From the NCBI GenBank assembly GCA_018057455.1, contig JAGPDT010000001.1, positions 55,956 through 119,955 on the forward strand: a stretch of 64,000 bases of DNA, given 5' to 3'. The notes beneath the pieces are model-generated. The model was not told the DNA's origin. It did no database searches and saw nothing but the letters and a program-made list of their open reading frames with translations. Numbering within the stretch: the first letter of the stretch is position 1; each line of letters begins with the position of its first letter. Positions 3,522 to 31,158 of this stretch are shown in pieces. The position numbers were made by a program, and so were the translations under genes. This DNA is from Flavobacteriales bacterium (GTDB lineage: Bacteria > Bacteroidota > Bacteroidia > Flavobacteriales_F > PHOS-HE28).

Positions 3522-4234
3522 TGCGCAACGCACGGCCATACGGACAATACGCCTTGGCGGCGGAGCTCTTCCGCTACCCGGGAGCCGACTTCCAAGACCG
3601 GGTGGCCGCGGTGTACGGCATGCTCCGGGCGCAGTACCCCGAAGCAGCGGACACCTTGCTGCCCTTCGCCCAATGGGTGGACGCCACGCCCGCGCACCAC
3701 GTGGAGGAAGTCTTCAGCCGCACCTTCCACGTGCAGGCCATCTGTTACCTGGACATCGGCTTCGTCCTCTTCGGCGAAGACTACAAGCGCGGCGAGTTCC
3801 TGGTGAACATGAAGCAGGAACAGGCCATGGCCGGTAACGATTGCGGGGAAGAACTGCCGGACAACCTGGTGAACGTGCTCACCTTGCTGCCGCTGCTCAG
3901 GGACGAAGCCTTCCGCGCGGAGCTGGCCGGCCGCGTGCTGATGCCCGCCCTGCGCAGGATGATGGCCGAGTTCAGCCCCGCGAAGTCCAAGCTGCGCACC
4001 AACATGCTCCGCCGCAAGCACAAAGCGCTGATCATGGCCGAGGAGCAGCACATCAACGTGTACCACCACGCCCTGCTGGCGCTCTTCCACATGCTCGTGC
4101 ACGACTTCGATGAGGTCGCGTTGGTGGAGTACAAGCCCACCGGACCCGATCCCTTGCGGGCCGCCGCCCCGGCGTCGGACTGCGGCACGTGCAACAGCCC
4201 CCATTCACCCCGGATCAATACCATGAAGCCATGA
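3521..4234 (+). CDS. narJ: Nitrate reductase molybdenum-cofactor assembly chaperone NarJ (TorD family)
   Basis: The 238-aa product starts MRNARPYGQYALAAELFRYPG and resembles the NarJ/TorD family. The start codon overlaps the narH stop; the gene sits between narH and narI. Confidence 0.85.
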
Positions 4235-5199
4235 AGTTGCTAGAGTTCAACGGTTTGTTTTCAGCCGGTTCGTTGGTCACCTTCCTGGTGGGCCTCACGC
4301 TGGTGGTGCTGGTGGTTGCCATCTACATGGCCTCGCGTGCCAAGCGGCTCATCCGCGAGCTGCACGGCGTGCAACGGCCCTCGCCCACGAACTTCTCCCT
4401 GGTGCTGCTGTTGATGCTGGCGGCGGCCGGGGCCCTGGTGTACCTGTTGAAGCTGGGCCTGGAGGCGCAATGGGGCATGCTGAACACCTTGGTGTTCGTG
4501 GCGCTGCCCTACGTGGCGTCGGCCATTTTCCTCATCGGCTCCATCCACCGCTACCGCAGCAGGGGCTTCCAGGTGAGCTCGCTTTCCTCGGAATTCCTCG
4601 AGCGCAGGAAGCTCTTCTGGGGCAGCCAGCCCTTCCACTGGGGCCTGCTGGTGCTCTTCTTCGGCCACCTCATCGCCTTCCTCTTTCCCCGCACCGTGCT
4701 GGCCTGGAACGGGCAGCCCGTTCGCCTGTTGATCCTGGAATACAGTTCCTTCGCCTTCGGCCTGGCCACGCTGTTGGGCCTGGTGCTGCTGATCCGCCGC
4801 AGGCTCGGCAACAAGCGCGTGCTGATCGTGAGCAACCGCATGGACATGCTGGTGTATGCCGTGCTGATCACCCAGATCGTGAGCGGGCTGGGCGTGGCCT
4901 TCTTCGCCCGCTGGGGCTCCTCCTGGTTCGCCTCCAGCGTTACGCCCTACCTGCGTTCGCTCTTCGCCCTCAACCCCGACATCGCCGCGGTGAGCGCCAT
5001 GCCGTGGATCATCCAAGTGCACATCATCTCCGCCTTCGCCATCGTGGCCCTCATCCCGTTCACCCGCTTCATGCACTTCCTGGTGGCACCGATCGACTAC
5101 CTCTGGCGCGGCTACCAGCTGGTGATCTGGAACTGGGGCCGCAGGTCCATCCGCAGTTCGGGCAGCTATTATCCCGGCGTGAAGTCCAAGAACAACTGA
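4231..5199 (+). CDS. narI: Nitrate reductase gamma subunit NarI (heme b membrane anchor). The model includes an ~82-aa N-terminal extension with two extra predicted TM helices; the canonical NarI core begins at internal M97 (nt 4477). A start at 4189 is also possible.
   Basis: MLNTLVFVALPYVASAIFLIGSIHRYRSRGFQVSSLSSEF aligns with the E. coli NarI N-terminus ([24 protein letters not shown]). The ATG at 4231 overlaps the narJ stop (ATGA). The upstream in-frame portion is hydrophobic and helix-like, not junk. Confidence 0.8.
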   Translation: MKLLEFNGLFSAGSLVTFLVGLTLVVLVVAIYMASRAKRLIRELHGVQRPSPTNFSLVLLLMLAAAGALVYLLKLGLEAQWGMLNTLVFVALPYVASAIFLIGSIHRYRSRGFQVSSLSSEFLERRKLFWGSQPFHWGLLVLFFGHLIAFLFPRTVLAWNGQPVRLLILEYSSFAFGLATLLGLVLLIRRRLGNKRVLIVSNRMDMLVYAVLITQIVSGLGVAFFARWGSSWFASSVTPYLRSLFALNPDIAAVSAMPWIIQVHIISAFAIVALIPFTRFMHFLVAPIDYLWRGYQLVIWNWGRRSIRSSGSYYPGVKSKNN

Positions 5200-16093: not shown

Positions 16094-18436
16094 TCAGTTG
16101 GGCAGGTCCAGCGCGAAGGCGGCCAGCGCATCGCGGTCCAGGTATTCCAGCACTTGGGTGCCGTTGGTGGCCCAGGCATCGGTGTGCAGGCTTTCGGCGA
16201 ATGCGGCGCTGGGGCAGCCGCCAAGCAGGTCGGCGGCGTTGTTCAACCCTTCATAGATCCGCTGCGCCGGTACAGCCAGGGTGTACACACCGCTGGTGTC
16301 GGTGGCCACATCGCCGCTGGCGCTGGCCGGGGCCACGAAATTGCCCAAGCCGCGCACCACCGTGAAGCTGAAGTTGCCGAAGTCGTTGGGGTGCCGGGCG
16401 TGGAAGCGGAGCTTCACCTTGGAGGTCAACGCATCGGCATAGTGCAGGAATCCGCAGTTGCTGGTGGCCTCGGTGAAACCCGTGCCGTTGTCCACGGCCG
16501 CATGGTAGATGCCCACCTCCATGTTGCGGTTGTCCACGCGTACCAGGATCTTGAAGCCGCTGGCCTTGGTGAGGGGCGATCCTTCCGTGAAGAGGAAGGC
16601 CGGTGGGGCGTCAATGGTGATGCTGTTGTCGTGGTAGTCCGGCACTTGGAAGAAGTCCTGGTCCATGTGCACGGGCACGAATCCACCGGCCATCACCTTG
16701 CCCAGCTGCATCACCACTTCGTACAGGCCGGCGGGGGCCAGCTGGATGGTGTCGAAGAAGGCACAATAGAATTCCTCCATTTCCCAGAAGCGCTGGAAAC
16801 CGGCGGGTGCGGCACCTACCGTGGCGATCACATCGTGCTGCGGGATGGTGTAGGTGGGTTGGGCCACAGTGGCCACGGGCCCCAGCTTATGGTCCTTGTG
16901 GTGGAAGATGTTCGTGGCCGTCTCAAAGTCGATGTAGCCGATGTTCACGTCCTGCCCGATGAAGTGCCAGCTGTCCGCTTCGGGCACCAGGGTGTTGTCC
17001 GCGGATGCGGTCCGGCCGTTGCCCCCGGGGAGGTGATGGCCGGCGGTGGCGCGTTCCTTCAACTTGTATTTCCACTGGTAGTGCGTAATGCCCGCGGCCA
17101 GCAGTCCGTCGGTGAAGTTCACCTTCATGGGCAGGGTGGCACCGAAGGGGGAGAAGTTGCCGCCGCCCACCAGGTCGCTCAGGCCGGTTTGGCGGAACAC
17201 CTTGCCACTGCGCAGGACCGTGGCGCCGGATTGCTCCACATGCTGGACGAAGGCGCTTGAACCGATGCGGCGGAATTCGATGCCCGAGCCCGGAAGCAGC
17301 GGCGACGGGCCGCAGGCGGGCACGCGCGGATCGGTGAGGTGCACCGTGATCTCCGTGCCGCAGGTGTAATCCCAATGGGTGTGGCAGGCACGGCCCGGGT
17401 TGTATACGGTGGTGTACGAGCCGCCCACCATGTATTCCACCCATACGTACACGTCCGGTTGCCACTCATCGGTGCAGCGGTTGTACAGGATGTCGAATCG
17501 GCCGTGCTCGTCGGTGAGCTCCGTGCCGATCTCCGTGCAACGGTACAGGTAGGGCCAGATCCAGGGCCACTGGCAGAAGTACGGGTGGAACAGCTGCACG
17601 TTGGCGGTGATGGTGGCACGCAGCTGCCCGATGTTGTCGGTGAGCATGGCCGCGATCAGGTCTTCGGACGGCCGGGGTGCGGCGATGGTGTTCAATGGCA
17701 GCACGGCGTTGCCGGTGGCGCGCAGCTTTACCATGGACCGCAGGTTGCCTTGCACCCCGGTGGGCTTCACAAAGCGCAGGCCGGCCTGCTGCTCGGTGAT
17801 GTGCGTGGTGAGGTCCTTCGCCTCGAAAGGCTCGATGAAGCGCGTTACCGGGGCGGGCGGCCACAGGTCGCGCGGGTCCTTGAAAGGCACGTCAAAGTCG
17901 ATCACCTCCTTCAAATGCAGGTCATGCAGCCATTCCCAGCGCCAACGCCAGTACACCAGGTCCGGCAGGGTGGGCAGTACCAAGGTGAGCTTGTCCACTT
18001 CGCACACGTGCACCTTCGCATTGCACACGGGGTAGTCCACGGAGATGCCATTGCGCAGCAGGGTCTTCACCACCTTGCCGCGGATGGTGCACCAGCAGAT
18101 CGACCAATAGGGCCAGAAGGAGGCTGGTACGGGGTACAGGTCCTGGAGGGTGCCCCGCGCATTGCGCACGACCGGTGAGTAGGATTTCCACTTGCGCATG
18201 TGCGCGGGTGTCACGGCGTCACCGGGTTGGAGGTCGCGGGGTTCGGGCGTGATGTGCAGTGTGCCGTACTTCAGTTGCTCCCCGGTGGCGTCGGGCAGCA
18301 GCAGTTCGCCCTTCTTGCCCACCGGGGCGCTGCTGACCAGCTTTTCCTGCCGGTCGAAGAGCCAAGCCCTCAAGGGGATGTCGGGGTTGTGTTTTTCACC
18401 CACGGGCAGATTGAGCCGTACTTGTTGCTTTGCCAT
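16094..18436 (-). CDS. Large conserved hypothetical protein (780 aa, Trp-rich, no signal peptide or TM segments)
   Basis: The ORF is intact with native-like GC and ordinary protein composition. No family was recognised. A hairpin terminator follows it. Confidence 0.6.
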   Translation of the reverse strand: MAKQQVRLNLPVGEKHNPDIPLRAWLFDRQEKLVSSAPVGKKGELLLPDATGEQLKYGTLHITPEPRDLQPGDAVTPAHMRKWKSYSPVVRNARGTLQDLYPVPASFWPYWSICWCTIRGKVVKTLLRNGISVDYPVCNAKVHVCEVDKLTLVLPTLPDLVYWRWRWEWLHDLHLKEVIDFDVPFKDPRDLWPPAPVTRFIEPFEAKDLTTHITEQQAGLRFVKPTGVQGNLRSMVKLRATGNAVLPLNTIAAPRPSEDLIAAMLTDNIGQLRATITANVQLFHPYFCQWPWIWPYLYRCTEIGTELTDEHGRFDILYNRCTDEWQPDVYVWVEYMVGGSYTTVYNPGRACHTHWDYTCGTEITVHLTDPRVPACGPSPLLPGSGIEFRRIGSSAFVQHVEQSGATVLRSGKVFRQTGLSDLVGGGNFSPFGATLPMKVNFTDGLLAAGITHYQWKYKLKERATAGHHLPGGNGRTASADNTLVPEADSWHFIGQDVNIGYIDFETATNIFHHKDHKLGPVATVAQPTYTIPQHDVIATVGAAPAGFQRFWEMEEFYCAFFDTIQLAPAGLYEVVMQLGKVMAGGFVPVHMDQDFFQVPDYHDNSITIDAPPAFLFTEGSPLTKASGFKILVRVDNRNMEVGIYHAAVDNGTGFTEATSNCGFLHYADALTSKVKLRFHARHPNDFGNFSFTVVRGLGNFVAPASASGDVATDTSGVYTLAVPAQRIYEGLNNAADLLGGCPSAAFAESLHTDAWATNGTQVLEYLDRDALAAFALDLPN

Positions 18437-20380: not shown

Positions 20381-20953
20381 TCAGGATCCCCCGCGGTAAA
20401 TGTTCACCCATTGCGGCCGCCCCATGTCGCGGAGCAGGCGGAAGAGGTCCTCACCGATGATGAGCCCGTTGGTGGATTCCAGGCCGTAGTGCCCCAGGAT
20501 CTCCATCTGGCGCGGGCTTGGCGCCAATGGCTTTTCGCTCCATCCCGTGGCGTTGCGCTGGCCGGCCTGCACTTTCAAGGGGTACTCCCAGTAGCGTAGT
20601 TTCCACAGGTTGTCCAGGGTGCTGCAATCGGTCAGGAAGCCCATGGCGGCGCTGTCCGGCGGCAAGGTGCATTGCACCACGCCATACGTGCGGAAAAGGT
20701 CTTCTGCCCCGGGGTTGGCCGCGCTGAAGGCGCGTCCCTGCACCTGGCGGATGAAGTTCTCGCGCGAGAGCGGACGGCTTTCCACCACCTGCGGGGCACC
20801 GGCGGTGTCGCGGGCCACTTTCACCAGGAAGAGGCAGAAAAGGCGGCCATCGGTGGAAGGCGAAAGGCTGAGGGCGAACTGGTGTTCCGAAGGTGTTTGT
20901 GCCGCGGTCCACAGCCATAGGAGAAGAGCAGGAAGGACCGTGGGCAGGCGCAT
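20381..20953 (-). CDS. Hypothetical secreted protein
   Basis: The signal peptide MRLPTVLPALLLWLWTAAQTP begins at internal M27. No family was recognised. Confidence 0.45.
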   Translation of the reverse strand: MRLPTVLPALLLWLWTAAQTPSEHQFALSLSPSTDGRLFCLFLVKVARDTAGAPQVVESRPLSRENFIRQVQGRAFSAANPGAEDLFRTYGVVQCTLPPDSAAMGFLTDCSTLDNLWKLRYWEYPLKVQAGQRNATGWSEKPLAPSPRQMEILGHYGLESTNGLIIGEDLFRLLRDMGRPQWVNIYRGGS

Positions 20954-20987
20954 GGCACGAAAGTACCACCGCACCGGCCGGGCTGGT

Positions 20988-21569
20988 TCACGGGCTTTGT
21001 GTCGCGGGGTGCGATGCGCGTGCCGTTGCATGGCGGGTAAAGACGAGTGTATCCCGGAAGATGCCGTTCACCAGGATGTTCTCGCGCAGGTGGCCTTCCA
21101 GCACGAAACCGTTGTGCTCCAACACATGGATGGAGGCGGCATTGTCCGGCGTCACGGCGGCTTCCACGCTGTGCAGCCCGATCTTGCGGAAGCCATGGTC
21201 CACCACGGCGGCCACGGCCTCGCTCATCAGGCCTTGGCCCCAGAGGTCGGGGTGCAGGGCATAGCCGATCTCGGCGCGGTGGTGTTCCTTGAGGATGCGC
21301 CAGAAGCCGATGTAGCCCAGGAGCACATCGGAGCCCTTCACCGTTATGGCCCACATGATGGCGTTGCCCCCGGCAGCGGCGTGGTGGAATTCGCGCACCA
21401 GCTGCAGCCCTTCCTCCTGGCGGGTGCCGATGGGCTTGGGGATGTGGCGCATCACGGCCGGCGATGCGCGCAGGCGGAAGACGTCGGCCGCATCGCTGTC
21501 GCGCAGGGCGCGCAGTTCCATCCGTGCCGTGGATAGCCGGGGTATGCGCTTGAAGTCCGTGCGCAACAT
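20988..21569 (-). CDS. GNAT-family N-acetyltransferase (RimL/RimJ-like)
   Basis: The N-terminus MLRTDFKRIPRLSTARMELRALRDSDAADVF parallels the paralog at 23000..23953. A GNAT motif A region (AVDHGFRKIGLHSVEAAVTPDNAASIHVLEHNGF) is present. Confidence 0.8.
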   Translation of the reverse strand: MLRTDFKRIPRLSTARMELRALRDSDAADVFRLRASPAVMRHIPKPIGTRQEEGLQLVREFHHAAAGGNAIMWAITVKGSDVLLGYIGFWRILKEHHRAEIGYALHPDLWGQGLMSEAVAAVVDHGFRKIGLHSVEAAVTPDNAASIHVLEHNGFVLEGHLRENILVNGIFRDTLVFTRHATARASHPATQSP

Positions 21570-21878: not shown

Positions 21879-22991
21879 ATGAAGCGGGGAACGATCAGCG
21901 CACTGTTGGCCATGGGCTGTATAATCATGGTGCACCAAGTGCGGGCCACGGAGTATGTGGTGCCCGCCAAGGGCGATGTGGGCAAGTGGTTCGCCCAATT
22001 GCCCGAGGATGCCACCGCGGTGGTGTTCTCCGCCGCCGAACGCTACTTCAGCCAGGGCGACATCGTTCTTCCTCCGCGGCGCATGCTGGTGATCGACGGC
22101 AAGGGGAGCCGCCTCTCGCTGGGGCCTGCCTCCAACGGCTTCACCTATGCCATCGCCAACATGCAGCAGGCCATGGAGCGCACCAATTGCCGGTACGTGA
22201 TCAAGGATTTCGCCGAGGTCCGCGGCGGGCGCAAGGCCATCGACCTGCAGGCCACCTTGGGCAGCGTGATCGAGAACCTCAACCTGGAGGCCCAAAGTGA
22301 AGTGGCCGTGGACCTGCGTTTCTGCCTGCTCACGCGCCTGCGCAACGTGCGGGTGACCAACCCGCGGGGCAAGGGCTTCGTGCTGCGCCAGGGCGATTGG
22401 GCCGGTGCGACCGGCACCAACAGCCAAAGCAACAGCAGCGTGCTGGAGCAATGCCGCGTGTACTGCGCGCCCTCCACCACGGCGGCCTTCACCATCCTCA
22501 ACAGCGGAGGGGTGCGCCTGGCGGATTGCGTGTCAGAAGGAGCGGAGGCCGACTACGACCTCTTCCTCAGCGCCACGTTGGACGGCGATGAGGGCCGGCC
22601 CGCGGGCAATCCCGTGGTGAAGTCGTTCATGCTGTCCAACTTCCATGTGGAGCACCAGGTGCGCAAGGCCTCCATCTATGTGAACATGCCGGCCAAGTCC
22701 GTGGTGGACCTGGAGAACGTGTATTGGAATGCACCCATGAAGGCACCGGTGGTGCTGTACACCATGGGGCAGTTGAACCTCTCCAACATCGGCTGGTGGA
22801 ACCCGGGATTCTGGATCGGTACGCGGATCAGCGCACCGCGCATCAGCATCAGCGGCGCACCCAGCGAGGCCGACCTGGACGAGCGCCGGACCAAAGGCCC
22901 GAAGGGGGGCCTGTTGCGGTTGGTGGATGCATTGCCCGGCAATACCGAACTGAAGCTGAACTATGTGCAGGTCCGCCGCAAGTCGATGTAG
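21879..22991 (+). CDS. Hypothetical secreted protein (370 aa)
   Basis: Signal peptide MKRGTISALLAMGCIIMVHQVRA. No family was recognised. Confidence 0.55.
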   Translation: MKRGTISALLAMGCIIMVHQVRATEYVVPAKGDVGKWFAQLPEDATAVVFSAAERYFSQGDIVLPPRRMLVIDGKGSRLSLGPASNGFTYAIANMQQAMERTNCRYVIKDFAEVRGGRKAIDLQATLGSVIENLNLEAQSEVAVDLRFCLLTRLRNVRVTNPRGKGFVLRQGDWAGATGTNSQSNSSVLEQCRVYCAPSTTAAFTILNSGGVRLADCVSEGAEADYDLFLSATLDGDEGRPAGNPVVKSFMLSNFHVEHQVRKASIYVNMPAKSVVDLENVYWNAPMKAPVVLYTMGQLNLSNIGWWNPGFWIGTRISAPRISISGAPSEADLDERRTKGPKGGLLRLVDALPGNTELKLNYVQVRRKSM

Positions 22992-22999
22992 CTCCCGGC

Positions 23000-23953
23000 T
23001 CAACCGTGGTACACGCGCGAGGCATTGATCAGGCCGTTGCCTATTTCAAGCACCTCGCCCACGCGCAGGTCGGCTTCACCTTCCACATGGCGGATGTACT
23101 CCATGAACACGGCCTGCCCGTCCGCGATCAGGTTCAGTGGTTCGTAGCGCAGCGAGGGCAACCTGTCGAACGCATCGCGCCACCAATCCCGCAGGGCTGC
23201 CTTGCCTTGCACCCAGCCTCCGGTCTCGGGCTTGCGGGCCTGGAGCTTGGGGCTGAAGTGGCGTGCATCATCGGCGTACAAGGCCAGCAAGGCCTCCAGG
23301 TGGTGTGCATTGAAGGCGGCGAACCAACGGCCTGCAACGGCCTCATTCCTGCGGGCCGGCTTCAGGGTGTCGAACGGGCCGATGGCCTTGGAGGCCGCAT
23401 CGTTGGCCCGATCCACCTGCGCATAGACCAGCGTGTCCTTGAATCTGCCTTGGTGGAAAGTGTCTTCACGGAAATGGGCTTCCTGTGAGAAACCGGTGCG
23501 TTCCAGCACGCGGATCGAACCGGTGTTCTCCGGGTCCACGCCCGCCTCCACACTGTGGAACCGCAGGGTCTCGAAGGCATGGCGCACCACGCAATGCACC
23601 GCTTCGCTCATCAATCCCCGGCCCCAATGCGCACGGATCATCGCATAGCCCAGTTCCGTGCGCAAGTCTTCCTTGCGCATGCGGAGCAGGCACACGATGC
23701 CGATCAATTCCGGTGAGGGGGCTTTGGTGATCGCCCAGGCGAGCATCTTCTCCGCGTGCTGGTCCGCCAGGATCTGTGCGATATGCGCCACGGCATCGGC
23801 CATGGTGCTGGCCACCGGGCGCGGTATGTGTGCCATGGTCTGGCGGTCGGACCGCAGGGTGAACACGGCAGGGGCGTCCGCCTCCGTGATGGGCCGGAGC
23901 ACGAGCCGTTCGGTGCGCAGCGTGGGGATGTTCCTGAAATCGAGGTTCAGCAT
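23000..23953 (-). CDS. GNAT N-acetyltransferase (RimL-like) fused to a C-terminal NTF2/SnoaL-like domain
   Basis: MLNLDFRNIPTLRTERLVLRPITEADAPAVF starts at internal M31. The C-terminal ~120 aa (WFAAFNAHHLEALLALYADDARHFSP...) resembles the NTF2-like/SnoaL fold. Confidence 0.75.
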   Translation of the reverse strand: MLNLDFRNIPTLRTERLVLRPITEADAPAVFTLRSDRQTMAHIPRPVASTMADAVAHIAQILADQHAEKMLAWAITKAPSPELIGIVCLLRMRKEDLRTELGYAMIRAHWGRGLMSEAVHCVVRHAFETLRFHSVEAGVDPENTGSIRVLERTGFSQEAHFREDTFHQGRFKDTLVYAQVDRANDAASKAIGPFDTLKPARRNEAVAGRWFAAFNAHHLEALLALYADDARHFSPKLQARKPETGGWVQGKAALRDWWRDAFDRLPSLRYEPLNLIADGQAVFMEYIRHVEGEADLRVGEVLEIGNGLINASRVYHG

Positions 23954-24069
23954 GGGGCGGGCGAAGGTATCCGCGCCTTGGGCCTGCTCAACGGTCGGTG
24001 CTGGAGCCGGGCAACGGTTCCCGACGCGCGGAGGCGACCGCACCAGGGAACCTGTTCCGGTGATGCGGA

Positions 24070-24531
24070 TCAGCGGGTCCGTTTCACCCGGTGGGTGCCC
24101 GGCTCGCTGCGTGCCGCTATGGACAACCGGTTCCAGGCATTGATCGTGGCGATGGCGCAGGTGAGGTCGGCGAGTTCCGTGTCGTTGAAGTGCGGCCGCA
24201 CGGCTTCATGGACGCTGTCCGGCACTTGGCCATCCGCCACCAGCGTCACGGCTTCCGTCCATGCCAGCGCGGCCCGCTCGCGGTCGCTGTACCATGGGCA
24301 TTCGCGCCAGGCGTCCAAGGAGTAGAGACGTTGTTCGGTTTGGCCAAGGGCGCGGAGGTCCTTCCAGTGCATGTCGATGCAGTAGGCGCATGCGTTGATC
24401 TGCGAGGCACGCAGCTTCACCAAGTGGATCAATGGGACCTCGATGGAGCAGTGGTGCAGGTGTTCTTCCAGCGCCATCATGGCCTTGTACACGCCCGGTG
24501 AAGCGGTGGATAGGTTGAATCTTGGTTGCAT
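24070..24531 (-). CDS. Carboxymuconolactone decarboxylase / AhpD-like family protein
   Basis: MQPRFNLSTASPGVYKAMMALEEH starts at internal M34. An AhpD-core CxxHC-like motif (ACAYCIDMH) is present, and the ~150-aa size fits the family. Confidence 0.75.
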   Translation of the reverse strand: MQPRFNLSTASPGVYKAMMALEEHLHHCSIEVPLIHLVKLRASQINACAYCIDMHWKDLRALGQTEQRLYSLDAWRECPWYSDRERAALAWTEAVTLVADGQVPDSVHEAVRPHFNDTELADLTCAIATINAWNRLSIAARSEPGTHRVKRTR

Positions 24532-24626
24532 TGGTTGAAGGAGATAGGAGCACGAAGGTACCGTGGTATGGTCCGGATCGCCGGGGGAGCCCGGCCGTCC
24601 GGTGCCTTTCCGTTCACGCACCAGCG

Positions 24627-25157
24627 TCAAAACACCACGCGGAACACCATCACCGGCTCACCGCGGTGCGTGCCCAGTCGCTCCAACTCCATGCCGTTCC
24701 GCCTGGCCACGGCTTGGCTGGCGAAATTCCCCGGGTCGATCAACGAGACCACCGAAGGGGCCAATGCATGCCGTATCACGAAAGCCTTGCAGGCCATGGC
24801 CGCTTCCGTTGCGTAGCCATGCCCCCATGCAGACGGTAGCAGGTGGTAGCCGATCTCCAACTCCGCGACGCCATCAACCTCCTGCGTCAACAGGCCGATC
24901 ATGCCCACCGGCTTGTTGGTGCCATGGTCGGTGATCACGTTCAGGCAGGAGCCGTCGCGTGCAATGCGGTCCAGCGAGCGCTGGATGAAGAATTCGCAAT
25001 CCGCCTTGCTGCCCACGGTGAACGGCATGAAGCGGATGGCCTCGGCGTTGTCCAGGTATTCCATCCACCAGGAGCAGTCTTCCATGACTGGATGACGGAA
25101 GGCGAGGCGTTCGGTGGTAACCCCTTCCATGGAGGGAATGGGGAGGTTGACGGGCAT
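24627..25157 (-). CDS. GNAT-family N-acetyltransferase
   Basis: Length is 176 aa. The acetyl-CoA binding region (AWGHGYATEAAMACKAFV) fits the GNAT fold, and this is the third GNAT in the local cluster. Confidence 0.75.
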   Translation of the reverse strand: MPVNLPIPSMEGVTTERLAFRHPVMEDCSWWMEYLDNAEAIRFMPFTVGSKADCEFFIQRSLDRIARDGSCLNVITDHGTNKPVGMIGLLTQEVDGVAELEIGYHLLPSAWGHGYATEAAMACKAFVIRHALAPSVVSLIDPGNFASQAVARRNGMELERLGTHRGEPVMVFRVVF

Positions 25158-25298
25158 ATTGTTGTAGTTGGGATAGGCCGGAGGCCTTCAATGAGTACTA
25201 TGATCGCGACACACGCGAGCTCGGACCGGGGGAGAATTCAAGACGAAGGCATCAGGTTCTGCGAGCGGTTCGCGATCAATGCACGCGCCGACACAGGT

Positions 25299-25784
25299 TC
25301 ATGCCGGATCAGGAAAGTCCAATTCACCCAGCACCTCGCTCGGTGGTTTCCGGACCGAGAGGATCCCGAACTTCGGTGAGAGCCCGGCTTCACACAGCCG
25401 ATCGAACTTTTTTCTGTACCCTTCGTCGGCGGTGAGGAAATGGCTTACATCGGGCGTTGCATCAGCCTGTGCGAACAATTTCGTGTCGTTGGCGATAAGC
25501 AAGCGCTCGCCCGGAGCAGCAGCTTGCCCGCGGAATGCCGCACGGAACTTTCCGGCGCGAATGGCATGTTCCACATTGAAAGGCAGCATCTTCAAGTATT
25601 TCAAAGGCAATTGATCAATGGTGCCTCCTACGCAGAACTCCGCCACCACGATCGTGGAGAGGTACATGGGCAATTGATGGTCCACCAGATGTTTGAAGAA
25701 GCCATCGGCATTGCGGAATAGCGGATCGGATTCGTTGAGGAACCGCAGGAAGAAGCTGGTGTCCAGCAGCACGCCTTTAAGCAT
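25299..25784 (-). CDS. PIN-domain ribonuclease (VapC-like toxin)
   Basis: MLKGVLLDTSFFLRFL starts at internal M14. The conserved acidic residues D8, E (VVAEF) and D (ANDTKLFAQAD) are present. The start overlaps the stop of the upstream gene by 8 nt. Confidence 0.7.
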   Translation of the reverse strand: MLKGVLLDTSFFLRFLNESDPLFRNADGFFKHLVDHQLPMYLSTIVVAEFCVGGTIDQLPLKYLKMLPFNVEHAIRAGKFRAAFRGQAAAPGERLLIANDTKLFAQADATPDVSHFLTADEGYRKKFDRLCEAGLSPKFGILSVRKPPSEVLGELDFPDPA

Positions 25785-26553
25785 CGGCACCACGGATATC
25801 GTCCAACCAGGCATCCGGGTCAATGCCCTTGAGCCACGGGGAGGCTTTCTTTCTGAGCTGATCGAAATAGGCCTTGTCGAAGCGGGCCTGATGGTCGATC
25901 AACTCGATGAACCGGACGGCATTACGGTCCACTTCGCCCGTGGACATGTTCTGCTTTCCAAGCACGCGCAGGCCGTACGGTTTGTAGATGATGCTTTCCT
26001 TCAGGTCCGCAATGGTCTGCTTGGGCGTTTGGACAATGAAAACGCCCTTGCCCGGAACCGATACATGGATGTTGGCCTTTTCCTTTCCGCCCGCATCGAT
26101 CACTTCCCCATACAGGTACAATTCAACCTCTACCCACACATCATCGGTTCGCTTGAACAGGGTTTCGCGGTCCACCACGAGCTTGGCGCTATTGGTCAGC
26201 CCGGTGGATAAAGTGAAAGCCCAGCCCTTCTTGATCGCCTCGTTCTGCATGGCCTCAATGGCCGAGGCGGTGCGCACTTCCAGGAAATCGATGTTCTGCT
26301 GCTGTTGCACCTGGCCCAACACCGCGTTGAAGGCGATCACTGTTTGCATGCTGGTGGTGAAGATGTTCCTCACCGAGCCTTCCTCGTTGCGATACCCGAT
26401 GGTGGGCCGGTCCTTTCGCTCGCCGGGGAAGAGCAGGTCTTCAACGCGTGCCAGCAGGTCCTTCAGCTCGCGAATGTCGATGACCTCCGGGGTGAGCTTC
26501 AACGCGCCTGCATGGCCCTCCATGCGGATCTCTATGGTGCCGGTCTTTTCCAC
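25777..26553 (-). CDS. Hypothetical protein (258 aa) immediately upstream of, and overlapping, the PIN gene; candidate cognate partner
   Basis: The ORF is intact with protein-like composition. No family was recognised. A possible R-x6-H HEPN-like motif (RFIELIDH) occurs near the C-terminus. Confidence 0.5.
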   Translation of the reverse strand: MEKTGTIEIRMEGHAGALKLTPEVIDIRELKDLLARVEDLLFPGERKDRPTIGYRNEEGSVRNIFTTSMQTVIAFNAVLGQVQQQQNIDFLEVRTASAIEAMQNEAIKKGWAFTLSTGLTNSAKLVVDRETLFKRTDDVWVEVELYLYGEVIDAGGKEKANIHVSVPGKGVFIVQTPKQTIADLKESIIYKPYGLRVLGKQNMSTGEVDRNAVRFIELIDHQARFDKAYFDQLRKKASPWLKGIDPDAWLDDIRGADA

Positions 26554-26662
26554 GGATCAAAGGTAGGAGCGGATACAGATGTGCTCGGGGCGAAAACGCG
26601 AGCGCGTGCTTGGGGGTGTGGCGTGGTCAAATGAACCGCAGTCCCTGTGCCCTTCTGCCAGT

Positions 26663-29802: not shown

Positions 29803-31032
29803 TCACGGCTTGATGGCCGCGGCCAGCTCGGCCTCCTTGCGCATCTTCCAGGAATGGCCCAGCAGCACGAAGATGCCCACGGGCAACAACAGCGACACCA
29901 GAAGGATGATCCAGTAGTAGCCGGGGATCATGCCCCAGCCCGCCCAAAAGGAGAGGCCTTGGATGAACAACACCCCCTCCATCAGCAGCATGCCGCTGGT
30001 GAAGGTGGCCAGGCCGATGCGGGCCACGGCCGAAGTGCTGATGAACCAGCCGCGCAGCAGCGCCATGGCGAACAACATCATGCTGATCACGCCCAAGGTG
30101 TTCAGGTGCACGAAGCCGACCACGTAGTTGCGCACGGTGAACGCCATGATGGCCACCTCGGGGATCGCCACGGCGGCCTGCATCAACACCTTCAGGCCCA
30201 TGGCCGCCAAGGAGTACGTAACGCAACGCCAGGCCCACAACGGAGCTTTGTCATGCAGCATTTTCTGGGCCCCCAAGATGGCCCGGGCGGTACGCCAACC
30301 GGCCGCCAATTGAAGCACCACGCCGATGGAGTTGGTGGCGTACACGGCCCAATGGTGTTCGCTCCAGGCTATGGCCAAGGCGAAGGTGAGCACCACGGAG
30401 ACCAGCCAGAGGCGGATGGTGATGCGGTCCATGACATGGCGTGCACCATGGGTCTCCGCCCACCTGCTCCACAAGGCCAAGGCACCGAACCAGAACCAGC
30501 CGTTGAGCTGGAAGTGCAGGTAGAACTGGATGGACCAGTAGTACAGCTCCGTGCCGAAGCCGCCATTGGCGATGATCAGGCCGGTGGCCCACACCCCCAG
30601 GGTTGAAACGAACATCAGCACCACGGCGATGCGGGCCAGCAAGCGGCTTCCGTTGGCCCGCCAGGTGCGTGTGGCCTTCCAGACCTGTAAGCACAGCACG
30701 TAGCTCGCCAGCATGTGCAGCACCGATACCGTGATCGTGAAGGGGCCATAGCTCTGCACGGGAAAGCCCAGGAGCATGCCCACCACGGCCACTTGGGCCG
30801 TGACCAGCATGGCCAAGCTCAGGCGCGAAGGGCCCTTGGGGGTTTCATCGCGCAGCAGGAACACCACCATGGCAATGAAAGCCCAGCCCAACATGGCCAC
30901 GTGGGAGTGGGCATTGAGCAGGGCCTTGAAACGGACAAAGGGGATCTCCCAGATGTAGATGGCGCGCAGTACGCAGCCCACCAGGCCGGCGATCCCGAAG
31001 TTGAACAGGGCAATATTGTACCAACGTTGCAT
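29803..31032 (-). CDS. Polytopic membrane protein (~12 TM, conserved His), possibly an NnrS-family protein
   Basis: About 410 aa from internal M33, highly hydrophobic with His-containing helices. It sits on the opposite strand inside the nos cluster. The family assignment is tentative. Confidence 0.5.
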   Translation of the reverse strand: MQRWYNIALFNFGIAGLVGCVLRAIYIWEIPFVRFKALLNAHSHVAMLGWAFIAMVVFLLRDETPKGPSRLSLAMLVTAQVAVVGMLLGFPVQSYGPFTITVSVLHMLASYVLCLQVWKATRTWRANGSRLLARIAVVLMFVSTLGVWATGLIIANGGFGTELYYWSIQFYLHFQLNGWFWFGALALWSRWAETHGARHVMDRITIRLWLVSVVLTFALAIAWSEHHWAVYATNSIGVVLQLAAGWRTARAILGAQKMLHDKAPLWAWRCVTYSLAAMGLKVLMQAAVAIPEVAIMAFTVRNYVVGFVHLNTLGVISMMLFAMALLRGWFISTSAVARIGLATFTSGMLLMEGVLFIQGLSFWAGWGMIPGYYWIILLVSLLLPVGIFVLLGHSWKMRKEAELAAAIKP

Positions 31033-31092
31033 GTGGCTGCGAAGTTGGGTACAAGCCGGGAATGGGCGCGGCTGATCATTCTCACGGCCGTT

Positions 31093-31108
31093 CCTGACAA
31101 CGGTCAGG
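31093..31108. promoter_or_regulatory. Candidate Crp/Fnr-family (Dnr/NnrR-like) binding site cCTGAC-aacg-GTCAGg in the divergent promoter region between the NnrS-like gene and the cyt c-nosZ operon
   Basis: A perfect 16-bp palindrome with a TGAC-N4-GTCA core is centred about 35 nt upstream of a TTTG -7-like element (31133-31136) and about 58 nt upstream of the cyt c start codon. Confidence 0.35.
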
Positions 31109-31158
31109 CCTATCTTCGCCACGGTCACGAATTTTGAACCCGCAAACCACTACGATCC

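What the first reader, a model, noticed from the sequence alone, without database searches (positions are those of the whole stretch)
25299..26553. PIN-domain (VapC-like) gene coupled to an unusually large (258 aa) unannotatable upstream partner
The PIN gene has the canonical acidic residues and starts 8 nt before the stop of the upstream ORF, which implies co-translation. Typical VapB-type antitoxins are 70-90 aa DNA-binding proteins; this partner is three times that size with no recognisable fold. A possible R-x6-H HEPN-like motif (RFIELIDH) sits near its C-terminus. The pair could be a non-canonical toxin-antitoxin module, or a sensor-effector defence pair.
Basis: partly seen in the sequence, partly recalled or inferred. 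Interest (0 to 1): 0.55.

Follow-up and report, generated by a model that had tools for sequence, protein, structure and literature searches.

The report
PIN toxin with novel OB-fold partner
A small RNA-cutting "PIN" toxin gene is welded to an uncharacterised 258-residue partner gene, and the same two-gene cassette recurs in hundreds of bacterial species, behaving like a toxin-antitoxin or phage-defence module whose antitoxin belongs to a protein family nobody has described.

Summary
On the minus strand, a 258-aa ORF (25777-26553) overlaps a 161-aa PIN gene (25299-25784) by 8 nt. The PIN passes Pfam's threshold, and its acidic quartet D8/E49/D100/D120 is invariant across homologues. The partner matches nothing by sequence in Pfam, NCBIfam, PADLOC, PHROGs or PDB. 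The suggested HEPN R-x6-H motif is not conserved and is rejected.

The partner belongs to a large family of uniform length: 751 clusters at 50% identity, in more than 543 species. It occurs mainly in Bacteroidota and Ignavibacteriota, with a Burkholderiales branch. AlphaFold models show three parts: an N-terminal ferredoxin-like domain, an OB-fold, and two lower-confidence C-terminal helices.

The pairing is essentially obligate in both directions. The 8- or 11-nt overlap is conserved, and the two proteins co-diverge (r=0.89). Decay is asymmetric. The PIN is destroyed in 13 of 77 loci that keep a full partner. The partner is damaged in 1 of 71 loci with an intact PIN, and that locus retains the C-terminal helices.

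The cassette has lower GC than its flanks. It also occurs on a plasmid, at prophage edges and next to restriction-modification genes.

Best reading: a VapC-type toxin-antitoxin or abortive-infection module with a new large antitoxin/sensor. This is a new variant of a known kind and is moderately interesting.

The parts
25777..26553 (-). Partner gene (258 aa, GTG start, stop TAA at 25777-25779): putative antitoxin/sensor of a novel family
   Evidence: ORF. The start is supported by the conserved MEKTGxIEI N-terminus. The family has 130 word-indexed hits, 751 clusters at 50% identity and relatives in more than 543 species genomes. There is no significant hit in any sequence library.
26188..26553 (-). 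Partner residues 1-122: ferredoxin-like beta-alpha-beta-beta-alpha(alpha)-beta domain
   Evidence: AF2 model of the domain alone: pLDDT 81.8, pTM 0.73. The Foldseek PDB hits are designed ferredoxin folds, ACT domains and dimeric alpha+beta barrels, at E 2e-3 to 0.1 and TM<=0.47. This is fold-level similarity only.
25888..26181 (-). Partner residues ~125-222: OB-fold (b1-b2-b3-helix-b4-b5). Its best-conserved segments are AGGK(D/E)KANIH (153-163), which I place in the b1-b2 loop, and GKQ...TGE(V/I)D (199-209), which I place at b4 and the following loop
   Evidence: Secondary structure from AF2. The top Foldseek PDB hits are almost all OB-fold proteins (RPA, ExoVII OB, IF1/aIF1A, Rim1 SSB, Stn1/Ten1), with probability up to 1.0 and E 0.01-0.1. 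Mean column conservation is 0.89 for residues 153-163 and 0.81 for 196-209, against 0.74 for the whole domain.
25780..25887 (-). Partner residues 223-258: two amphipathic C-terminal helices with conserved Y229, L230, L233, A237, W240, W249, L250, R254 and G255. This is the proposed PIN-binding, neutralising tail
   Evidence: pLDDT is lower here (57-73) than in the folded body. Invariant and near-invariant residues are listed. This is the only part of the partner retained beside an intact PIN in L151. It holds 16 of the 50 top inter-protein MI-APC pairs against about 7 expected, which is weak evidence at Neff 63.
25299..25784 (-). PIN-domain (VapC-like) gene, 161 aa, ATG start: the proposed RNase toxin/effector
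   Evidence: Pfam PF01850 at 33.4 bits, above the 23.6 cut-off. D8, E49, D100 and D120 are invariant. The family has at least 941 hits, a few of them named VapC-family toxin or PIN domain-containing protein by their sources.
25777..25784 (-). 8-nt overlap ATGCTTAA between the partner stop and the PIN start (translational coupling signal)
   Evidence: Sequence. An 8- or 11-nt overlap occurs in 63 of 64 intact species-level loci.
26554..26662 (-). 109-nt spacer upstream of the partner, downstream of the E1 dehydrogenase gene. A promoter presumably lies here but was not identified
   Evidence: No sigma-70-like site and no inverted repeat were found. No Rfam match. Bacteroidota promoters are not covered by the scan.

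Best explanation
This is a two-gene, translationally coupled toxin-antitoxin-like cassette.

**Toxin.** The downstream gene encodes a VapC-type PIN endoribonuclease with a complete metal-binding acidic quartet. It is the harmful effector.

**Neutraliser.** The upstream 258-aa protein is its cognate neutraliser. It is not a small DNA-binding VapB. It has three parts: a ferredoxin-like N-domain, an OB-fold whose most conserved loops I place on the canonical ligand-binding side of the fold, and two amphipathic C-terminal helices.

**Proposed mechanism**
1. The two proteins are made from one mRNA in a fixed ratio, through the conserved 8/11-nt stop-start overlap.
2. The C-terminal helices of the partner dock on the PIN and block its active-site groove, as the C-terminal parts of VapB/FitA antitoxins do.
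3. The folded ferredoxin-like/OB body either binds nucleic acid to control the operon or senses a trigger such as foreign ssDNA or RNA. Trigger binding, or loss of the partner, frees the PIN to cut cellular or phage RNA and stop growth.

**Shown here:** gene anatomy, PIN identity and catalytic residues, partner fold classes, obligate co-occurrence, co-divergence, asymmetric decay, and mobility/defence context.

**Inferred:** toxicity, direct binding, which region neutralises, the ligand of the OB-fold, and any anti-phage role.
For: **PIN identity.** Pfam PIN is above threshold and the acidic quartet is invariant.

**Pairing in both directions**
- Of 80 loci picked through the partner in GTDB species genomes, 64 have an intact PIN immediately downstream, with an 8-, 11- or 4-nt overlap.
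- In the remaining informative loci the PIN is a frameshifted or deleted remnant.
- Of 80 metagenome loci picked through the PIN, 70 have a full partner upstream and 9 are cut by a contig end.
- All 10 IMG/VR contigs carry both genes.
- So do Bordetella plasmid pA, at 23% partner and 35% PIN identity, and a Kerstersia prophage edge.

**Co-divergence.** Pairwise distances of the two proteins correlate at r=0.89 (Mantel p=0.001, 127 unique pairs).

**Asymmetric decay**
- The PIN is destroyed in 13 of 77 loci that keep a full-length partner. The partner is damaged in 1 of 71 loci with an intact PIN (Fisher p=0.0013).
- Several PIN lesions are N-terminal deletions that remove D8, so they are not sequencing errors.
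- P0047 is a partner-PIN fusion in which the DTS motif of the first catalytic Asp reads RYE.
- The single damaged partner (L151) keeps exactly the last ~46 residues, that is beta5 plus the two C-terminal helices.

**Accessory and mobile character**
- GC is 0.55-0.57 against 0.63-0.67 in the flanks.
- Neighbours vary between genomes.
- Type IIG RM/MTase, MADS-like, SNF2, HATPase+HD-CE and DndB-like genes are often adjacent.

**Partner structure.**
Against: - There is no experimental evidence of toxicity or neutralisation.
- The partner lacks every classical antitoxin DNA-binding fold. No operator-like inverted repeat lies upstream in the window.
- The decay asymmetry is biased by how loci were chosen. 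Each set was ranked by match quality to the selecting protein, and the two sets come from different collections.
- Some frameshifts in MAGs could be assembly errors.
- The C-terminal neutralisation model rests on lower pLDDT, one natural truncation and a noisy covariation signal (Neff 63). No complex model could be made.
- The OB-fold assignment rests on weak Foldseek E-values (>=0.01).
- In the window itself the neighbours are housekeeping-like (E1 dehydrogenase, GNATs, CMD), not defence genes.
Confidence: 0.6

Rival explanations
1. Obligate two-subunit nuclease rather than toxin plus antitoxin. The OB-fold/ferredoxin-like protein is the substrate-recruiting or activating subunit of the PIN RNase. 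Both are needed for activity, either as a defence effector complex or as an RNA-processing enzyme. The partner does not inhibit the PIN.
For: - The conserved OB-fold loops suggest nucleic-acid binding.
- Co-occurrence is strict and divergence rates are equal: mean distance 0.38 against 0.40, r=0.89.
- The partner is as conserved as an enzyme subunit and is well folded, unlike the labile, partly disordered classical antitoxins.
Against: - If the partner only served the PIN, it should decay once the PIN is lost. Yet 13 species-level loci and Paraburkholderia L183 keep a full-length partner beside a dead PIN.
- The one locus with a damaged partner keeps only its C-terminal tail and not the OB-fold, beside an intact PIN.
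- The gene order (partner first) and the stop-start overlap are the classical antitoxin-toxin layout.
Confidence: 0.2
2. Dedicated anti-phage abortive-infection system. The partner is an immune sensor whose OB-fold detects a phage product, such as ssDNA, RNA or an SSB-like protein, and then releases or activates the PIN. This overlaps the best explanation but makes defence the selected function.
For: - Type IIG RM, MADS-like, SNF2, HATPase_c_3+HD-CE, DndB-like and MTase genes lie directly next to the pair in many loci. Seven of 124 nearest-neighbour genes are Eco57I-type enzymes.
- Two Spirosoma species share the flanks but carry different defence cargo.
- The pair occurs on IMG/VR contigs, at a prophage edge and on a plasmid.
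- There are full-length structural hits to phage proteins, one of them annotated DUF6575. DUF6575 occurs in an experimentally selected E. coli defence system.
Against: - No PADLOC model matches either protein in any branch.
- There is no Pfam DUF6575 signal in 46 members.
- Many loci, including the window, have housekeeping neighbours.
- Adjacency to RM genes is also typical of ordinary TA modules.
- No phage-challenge data exist.
Confidence: 0.3
3. Housekeeping RNA-metabolism pair with no conflict or addiction role, vertically inherited.
For: In the window and its closest Flavobacteriales relatives, the pair sits between the same metabolic genes (E1 dehydrogenase upstream, acetyltransferase downstream) on the same strand.
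Against: - Distribution is patchy: a few hundred of 185,579 species genomes.
- GC is lower than in the flanks.
- Contexts differ between genomes and include plasmid and prophage copies.
- The PIN is frequently pseudogenised.
Confidence: 0.05

Closest known systems
VapBC / FitAB type II toxin-antitoxin systems (PIN toxin, PF01850)
   Same: - The downstream toxin is a ~160-aa single-domain PIN with the D-E-D-D quartet. Its spacing matches characterised VapCs: for example D6/E43/D99/E120 in H. influenzae VapC1, from the table in PMC5499597, against D8/E49/D100/D120 here.
- The antitoxin gene comes first and the two genes overlap.
- The module is small and mobile, often lies near RM systems, and the toxin decays faster than the antitoxin.
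   Different: - The upstream protein is three times the size of a VapB.
- It has no RHH, AbrB, HTH or Phd domain, and it is a well-folded protein with two folded domains plus a C-terminal tail.
- The overlap is 8 or 11 nt rather than the usual 1 or 4 nt.
- No operator palindrome was seen.
- The PIN is too divergent to hit any solved VapC by sequence, even with a profile.
PIN subfamilies with non-canonical context in the Matelska et al. 2017 classification (PIN.4-PIN.7, 'function unknown'; PMC5499597)
   Same: These are PF01850-type PINs with a full set of catalytic residues, and they are not paired with transcription-factor-like antitoxins.
   Different: I could not establish that this PIN belongs to any of those clusters. 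No partner with an OB-fold is described there: the term 'OB-fold' occurs 0 times in the paper.
TA-derived phage-defence modules with large multidomain antitoxins or sensors (the NetFlax network, PanA-type and other novel antitoxins; PMC10440598)
   Same: A conserved toxin fold is paired with a novel, larger neutralising protein, and the module is linked to defence islands and mobile elements.
   Different: The partner was not recognised among the antitoxin domains named in the main text of that paper, which was only text-searched. No PADLOC model hits it.
DUF6575-containing E. coli defence system (Vassallo et al. 2022; PMC9519451) and phage DUF6575-annotated proteins
   Same: The best structural match of the whole partner model in BFVD is a phage protein annotated DUF6575 (E=1.2e-8, 259 aligned columns).
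   Different: - The TM-score is only 0.37 and the RMSD 12.7 A.
- No Pfam DUF6575 hit appears in any of 46 family members, even at E<=10.
- I could not check which part of the phage protein aligns. This is a lead, not a membership.

Membership tests
PIN domain (PF01850), VapC-like group | Profile match above Pfam's gathering score | tested here: met
   33.4 bits against a 23.6 cut-off, E=7.5e-8. Residues 5-124 cover profile positions 1-115 of 120.
PIN domain (PF01850), VapC-like group | Four conserved acidic active-site residues (D, E, D, D/E), with a Thr/Ser after the first Asp | tested here: met
   D8, T9, S10, E49, D100 and D120 are invariant in 25 homologues at 44-83% identity. They are also present in the Bordetella homologue.
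PIN domain (PF01850), VapC-like group | Metal-dependent ribonuclease activity | not testable with these tools
   This needs an in vitro cleavage assay.
Type II toxin-antitoxin system (VapBC type) | Bicistronic operon with the antitoxin upstream and the genes overlapping or abutting | tested here: met
   There is an 8-nt overlap in the window. An 8- or 11-nt overlap occurs in 63 of 64 intact loci.
Type II toxin-antitoxin system (VapBC type) | [quoted passage not shown] | tested here: not met
   The partner is 258 aa with no such Pfam domain. The model shows ferredoxin-like and OB folds instead.
Type II toxin-antitoxin system (VapBC type) | The toxin is harmful and the antitoxin neutralises it by direct binding | not testable with these tools
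   Support is indirect only. The PIN is destroyed in 13 of 77 loci against 1 of 71 for the partner. The two proteins co-diverge at r=0.89.
Type II toxin-antitoxin system (VapBC type) | Autoregulation through operator repeats upstream of the antitoxin gene | tested here: inconclusive
   There is no inverted repeat of >=8 nt in the 109-nt upstream spacer and no sigma-70-like promoter. Bacteroidota promoters are not covered by the scan, and homologous upstream regions were not compared.
HEPN (R-x4-6-H) nuclease | Conserved R-x4-6-H motif | tested here: not met
   R214 and H221 of 'RFIELIDH' vary freely in homologues: S/T/K/Q/L at position 214 and Y/F/S/L at position 221. This region is modelled as a beta-strand of the OB-fold, not a helix.
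OB-fold nucleic-acid-binding domain | Five-stranded beta-barrel topology b1-b2-b3-helix-b4-b5, with structural matches to OB proteins | tested here: met
   Strands lie at 140-155, 160-166, 170-176, 192-202 and 213-220, with a helix at 178-182. The top PDB Foldseek hits are RPA, ExoVII, IF1, SSB and Stn1/Ten1 OB domains. E-values are weak (0.01-0.1), so this is a fold assignment and not proven homology. Ligand binding was not tested.
Known anti-phage defence systems (PADLOC-DB v2) | Match of either protein to a defence-system model | tested here: not met
   There were no hits at E<=1 for the window pair, the Bordetella pair or three distant partner relatives.
DUF6575 (Pfam) | Profile match | tested here: not met
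   DUF6575 is not among the matches of any of 46 members at E<=10. There is only a structural hit to a phage protein carrying that annotation.

The most novel reading that the evidence does not exclude
The 258-aa protein would found a new class of immune sensor-antitoxin. Its OB-fold, perhaps with the ACT-like ferredoxin domain, would detect a phage-derived nucleic acid or protein. Binding would withdraw the C-terminal helices from the PIN active site. That would unleash an RNase that aborts infection. The system would be a widespread, so far uncatalogued abortive-infection system of Bacteroidota and Ignavibacteriota, with relatives on Burkholderiales prophages and plasmids and structural cousins in phages.
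Probability: 0.25. Interest if true: 0.7.

Novelty: new variant of a known kind. Interest (0 to 1): 0.5.

Why it matters
PIN/VapC toxins are the most abundant toxin family in prokaryotes. Their known neutralisers are almost all small DNA-binding proteins.

This cassette pairs a canonical-looking PIN with a large, well-folded partner that contains an OB-fold. The partner family is absent from Pfam, NCBIfam, PADLOC and PHROGs, and has no detectable sequence relative among solved structures. It is nevertheless present in hundreds of species and forms about 750 clusters at 50% identity.

If the partner is an antitoxin, it adds a new neutraliser architecture. It would also be a candidate for ligand- or nucleic-acid-controlled release of a toxin. 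If the cassette defends against phages, it is an unlisted system in Bacteroidota, a phylum whose defence repertoire is poorly tested experimentally.

The proposal can be tested directly with two small genes, and natural variants already point to the informative constructs: dead PINs, a C-terminal-only partner, and a fusion.

Tried and rejected
1. **HEPN reading of RFIELIDH.** Rejected because the motif is not conserved and lies in a beta-strand.
2. **Sequence annotation of the partner.** Pfam, NCBIfam, PADLOC, PHROGs, and PDB phmmer and profile searches gave nothing. Scanning all 46 family members at E<=10 gave only scattered chance hits.
3. **Closest solved VapC by sequence.** Single-sequence and profile searches found nothing.
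4. **N-domain function by structure.** Only generic ferredoxin-like or ACT-like folds matched, best of all de novo designs, so no function can be assigned.
5. **Operator, promoter or RNA element upstream.** No inverted repeat, no sigma-70 site and no Rfam hit were found.
6. **Inter-protein covariation (MI-APC, 127 pairs, Neff 63).** It is noisy. It shows only a ~2.3-fold enrichment of the C-terminal tail among the top 50 pairs, and the pairs are not independent. I treat this as weak support.
7. **A complex model.** I did not attempt one. The structure tool takes one chain and returns no contact or PAE data. The only natural fusion (P0047) has a corrupted first strand, so the result could not have been read. 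I used the second structure job on the N-domain instead.
8. **P0335 (530 aa).** The partner's N-part is joined to histidine-kinase, receiver and AraC segments. It looks like a chimera or truncation and was not pursued.
9. **Literature.** Searches on PIN + OB-fold + antitoxin/defence, NetFlax and DUF6575 found no description of this pair. The library is incomplete, so this is absence of evidence only.
Full report
**1. What is in the sequence**

On the minus strand, a 258-aa ORF (25777-26553, GTG start) is followed by a PIN-domain ORF.

- The PIN frame can be opened at a TTG at 25823. The start consistent with all relatives is the ATG at 25784, which gives 161 aa (25299-25784).
- With that start the two genes overlap by 8 nt, reading ATGCTTAA on the coding strand.
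- The GTG start of the upstream gene is supported by the near-invariant N-terminal residues G5, I7, E8 and I9, which precede the internal Met used by a public gene call (P0001, 248 aa).
- All neighbouring genes on this side are also on the minus strand. A fused E1 alpha/beta 2-oxoacid dehydrogenase lies upstream. A GNAT, a carboxymuconolactone-decarboxylase-family protein and a GNAT-SnoaL fusion lie downstream.
- The pair has 55-57% G+C, against 63-67% in the flanks.

**2. The PIN gene**

- It passes Pfam's curated threshold for PF01850: 33.4 bits against 23.6, E=7.5e-8.
- In an alignment of 25 relatives at 44-83% identity, D8, T9, S10, E49, D100 and D120 are invariant.
- Their spacing matches that tabulated for characterised VapC toxins in PMC5499597, for example D6/E43/D99/E120. 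The catalytic machinery is therefore intact.
- The family is divergent. No solved structure is hit by sequence, even with a profile.
- A ~35-residue C-terminal extension beyond the Pfam domain carries several conserved positions (F139, G153, L155).

**3. The partner**

No sequence library recognises it. Pfam, NCBIfam, PADLOC, PHROGs and PDB sequences give nothing significant. Scanning 46 family members one by one at E<=10 gives only scattered chance matches.

It is nevertheless a real, sizeable and strikingly uniform family:
- 130 word-indexed hits, almost all 258-261 aa.
- 751 clusters at 50% identity with E<=1e-3, of which 468 have E<=1e-10.
- Relatives in at least 543 of the GTDB species genomes.
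- It occurs mostly in Bacteroidota and Ignavibacteriota. There is a separate Burkholderiales branch (Bordetella, Achromobacter, Kerstersia, Paraburkholderia, Variovorax) at about 23% identity.
- Every named member is annotated 'hypothetical protein'.

It falls in a predicted beta-strand. The HEPN idea is rejected.

**4. Structure of the partner**

An AlphaFold2 model built with 46 sequences has mean pLDDT 80.6. It has three parts.

- *Residues 4-117.* These form a beta-alpha-beta-beta-alpha(alpha)-beta unit. Modelled alone it reaches pLDDT 81.8 and pTM 0.73. It matches only generic ferredoxin-like folds in the PDB: de novo designs, ACT domains and dimeric alpha+beta barrels, at E 2e-3 to 0.1 and TM<=0.47. 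This assigns a fold class and no function.
- *Residues ~140-220.* These have the b1-b2-b3-helix-b4-b5 order of an OB-fold. Nearly all the top PDB matches of the full model are OB domains: RPA subunits, ExoVII large subunit, IF1/aIF1A, the mitochondrial SSB Rim1 and Stn1/Ten1. E-values are weak (0.01-0.1) but probabilities reach 1.0. The most conserved segments of the domain are AGGK(D/E)KANIH (153-163) and GKQ...TGE(V/I)D (199-209), with mean column conservation of 0.89 and 0.81. I place them in the b1-b2 loop and at b4 plus the following loop. From general knowledge of OB-folds, those are the elements that usually form the ligand-binding face. Nucleic-acid binding is an inference.
- *Residues 227-254.* These form two helices with lower confidence (pLDDT 57-73). 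They carry conserved hydrophobic and basic residues: Y229, L230, L233, A237, W240, W249, L250, R254 and G255. That pattern is expected of a segment that folds on a partner.

**5. Linkage of the two genes**

- In every context retrieved by exact protein look-up, the partner is followed by a 158-163-aa PIN.
- Among 80 species-level loci chosen through the partner, 64 have an intact PIN. The PIN ATG overlaps the partner stop by 8 nt in 28 loci, 11 nt in 35 and 4 nt in 1.
- Three loci are cut by a contig end.
- In the other 13 loci the PIN survives only as a frameshifted, N-terminally deleted or almost wholly deleted remnant.
- Among 80 metagenome loci chosen through the PIN, 70 have a full-length partner upstream and 9 are uninformative because of contig ends. 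One (L151) has a partner reduced to its last ~46 residues.
- All ten IMG/VR contigs that encode the partner also encode the PIN, including one at 31% identity.
- The Bordetella bronchiseptica plasmid pA homologue (23% identity) is followed by a Pfam-positive PIN that is 35% identical to the window's.
- Pairwise distances of the two proteins over 127 unique pairs correlate at r=0.89 (Mantel p=0.001), with nearly equal mean divergence of 0.38 and 0.40.

The two genes are one evolutionary unit.

**6. Which gene is the dangerous one**

Decay is asymmetric.
- The PIN is destroyed beside a full partner in 13 of 77 informative loci. The partner is damaged beside an intact PIN in 1 of 71 (Fisher p=0.0013).
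- Several PIN lesions are deletions that remove the first strand with D8, so they are not sequencing artefacts. Examples are L029, L036, L068 and L080.
- An independent example is Paraburkholderia L183, where the PIN starts at the equivalent of residue 35.
- P0047 is a 418-aa fusion in which the DTS of the first catalytic motif reads RYE.
- The single damaged partner keeps beta5 and the two C-terminal helices, in an ORF that still overlaps the PIN start.

This is the pattern expected if the PIN is harmful, the partner protects against it, and the C-terminal tail is the protective part.

Caveats:
- Each locus set was ranked by the quality of the match to the selecting protein, which favours intact copies of that protein.
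- The two sets come from different collections.
- Some MAG frameshifts may be assembly errors.

A covariation analysis (MI-APC) places 16 of the 50 top inter-protein pairs in the C-terminal 36 residues, against about 7 expected. With Neff 63 and recurrent residues, this is only weak support.

**7. Context**

The neighbours differ from genome to genome.
- Of 124 nearest-neighbour genes from 31 loci, 7 are Eco57I-type type IIG restriction-methylases. Others hit MADS (mad2), ResIII, SWI2/SNF2, RhuM, ORF6N and DUF2442. Many are ordinary metabolic genes.
- In an Ignavibacteria-group genome assembly (GCA_016860725.1) the pair follows two DNA methyltransferases.
- In Spirosoma montaniterrae it follows an N6/N4 methyltransferase and a DndB-like protein. 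In S. linguale it follows a HATPase_c_3 + HD-CE protein. Peptidase_S58 and DUF6265 genes lie near the pair in both species. That suggests a shared region with variable cargo.
- In a metagenome contig carrying the Chitinophaga eiseniae PIN protein (P0193) it follows a 1246-aa SNF2 helicase.
- In Kerstersia it lies about 900 bp from a gene whose product has a TMP_3 (tape-measure) domain, so apparently at a prophage edge.
- In Bordetella it is on a 39-kb plasmid.
- In the window and its closest Flavobacteriales relatives it lies between housekeeping genes, with a GC dip.

This is the behaviour of an accessory, horizontally moving module that often lands in defence neighbourhoods.

**8. Most likely mechanism**

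My best explanation (confidence about 0.6) is a VapC-type toxin-antitoxin-like cassette.
- Translational coupling produces both proteins from one mRNA.
- The partner's C-terminal helices bind the PIN and occlude its active site, as the C-terminal regions of VapB/FitA do (described in PMC5499597).
- The ferredoxin-like plus OB body provides either operator binding or sensing of a trigger.
- Loss or displacement of the partner frees the RNase.

The steps that are shown and those that are inferred are listed in the structured fields.

The main rival (0.2) is that the partner is a substrate-recruiting subunit of a two-protein nuclease. The persistence of intact partners beside dead PINs, and of a tail-only partner beside a live PIN, argues against it.

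A defence-sensor reading (about 0.3, overlapping the main one) is suggested by the neighbourhoods and by a full-length structural match in BFVD to two phage proteins. One of them is annotated DUF6575 (E=1.2e-8, TM 0.37). DUF6575 is a domain of one experimentally selected E. coli defence system. However, no sequence signal for DUF6575 or for any PADLOC model exists in any branch.

A housekeeping role is unlikely (0.05).

**9. Comparison with what is known, and novelty**

- The toxin is a member of the PIN/VapC group: profile score and catalytic residues were both tested and met.
- The module works like a type II VapBC system in layout and evolutionary behaviour. It fails one defining feature, because the antitoxin is not a small RHH, AbrB, HTH or Phd protein. 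I therefore do not file it as a canonical VapBC.
- The 2017 PIN classification notes PF01850 subclusters (PIN.4-PIN.7) with non-TA contexts and unknown function. It never mentions an OB-fold. I could not map this PIN to those clusters.
- A text search of the NetFlax paper's main text did not turn up this pair, and PADLOC-DB v2 has no model matching either protein. No paper in the searchable library describes the pair.

I rate it a new variant of a known kind: a familiar toxin with a previously undescribed, widespread antitoxin/sensor family.

**10. Verdict**

The TA or defence-pair reading holds. The HEPN motif and the 'no recognisable fold' statement do not.
- Interest is 0.5. The finding is a solid, testable, uncatalogued family with natural variants that already point to the mechanism. 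It is an extension of the well-known PIN toxin-antitoxin theme rather than a new principle.

Noticed in passing
L151 3697-4456: This metagenome contig has an intact PIN (3992-4456). The upstream partner is reduced to a 101-aa ORF in which only the last ~46 residues (beta5 plus the two C-terminal helices) are recognisable. It directly follows an unrelated 626-aa gene. It may be a natural 'mini-antitoxin'.
   Followed up: partly
P0047 (418 aa, JGI metagenome protein): The partner and PIN are fused into one ORF. At the junction, the first catalytic motif LLDTSFF reads VVRYELFF, so D8 is lost. This is either a double frameshift or an inactivated fusion.
   Followed up: partly
L006 (Spirosoma montaniterrae CP014263) and L009 (S. 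linguale CP001769): In both genomes the pair has Peptidase_S58 and DUF6265 genes nearby. The gene directly upstream differs: N6_N4 MTase + DndB-like in one, HATPase_c_3 + HD-CE in the other. The region looks like a variable defence hot-spot.
   Followed up: no
window 25250-26500: G+C drops to 0.55-0.57 over the two genes, against 0.63-0.67 on both sides. This is consistent with acquisition from a lower-GC donor.
   Followed up: partly
BFVD hits A0A8S5QA00 and A0A8S5T657: Two phage proteins from metagenomes align structurally over the full length of the partner model (E 1e-8 and 2e-6, TM 0.37). One is annotated DUF6575, a domain of an E. coli PD defence system. There is no sequence-level link, and I could not fetch the sequences.
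   Followed up: partly
L182 (Bordetella bronchiseptica plasmid pA), L185/L186 (Kerstersia gyiorum), L183 (Paraburkholderia sp. 35.1): A betaproteobacterial branch of the cassette exists. It is found on a 39-kb plasmid full of small hypothetical genes, about 900 bp from a gene with a TMP_3 (tape-measure) domain (apparently a prophage edge), and near IS66 transposase genes with an N-terminally truncated PIN.
   Followed up: partly
L042 and L087: Contigs binned as a Methanobacteriaceae archaeon and as a Hyphomicrobiales bacterium carry a Bacteroidota-like copy of the pair (47% identity to the window partner). This is either binning contamination or horizontal transfer.
   Followed up: no
window 21879-22991 (+), 29803-31128 (-), 16094-18436 (-), 20381-21031 (-): Four sizeable ORFs near the finding (370, 441, 780 and 216 aa) have no Pfam match at E<=1e-3.
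   Followed up: no
window 23000-25157 (-): Directly downstream of the PIN, on the same strand, lie a GNAT acetyltransferase, a CMD-family protein whose start overlaps the GNAT stop by 4 nt, and a GNAT-SnoaL fusion. I did not examine whether they are co-transcribed with the cassette.
   Followed up: no
P0335 (530 aa): The N-terminal ~180 residues of a partner homologue are joined to histidine-kinase-like ATPase, receiver and AraC-type HTH segments. It is probably a chimeric or truncated gene call.
   Followed up: no
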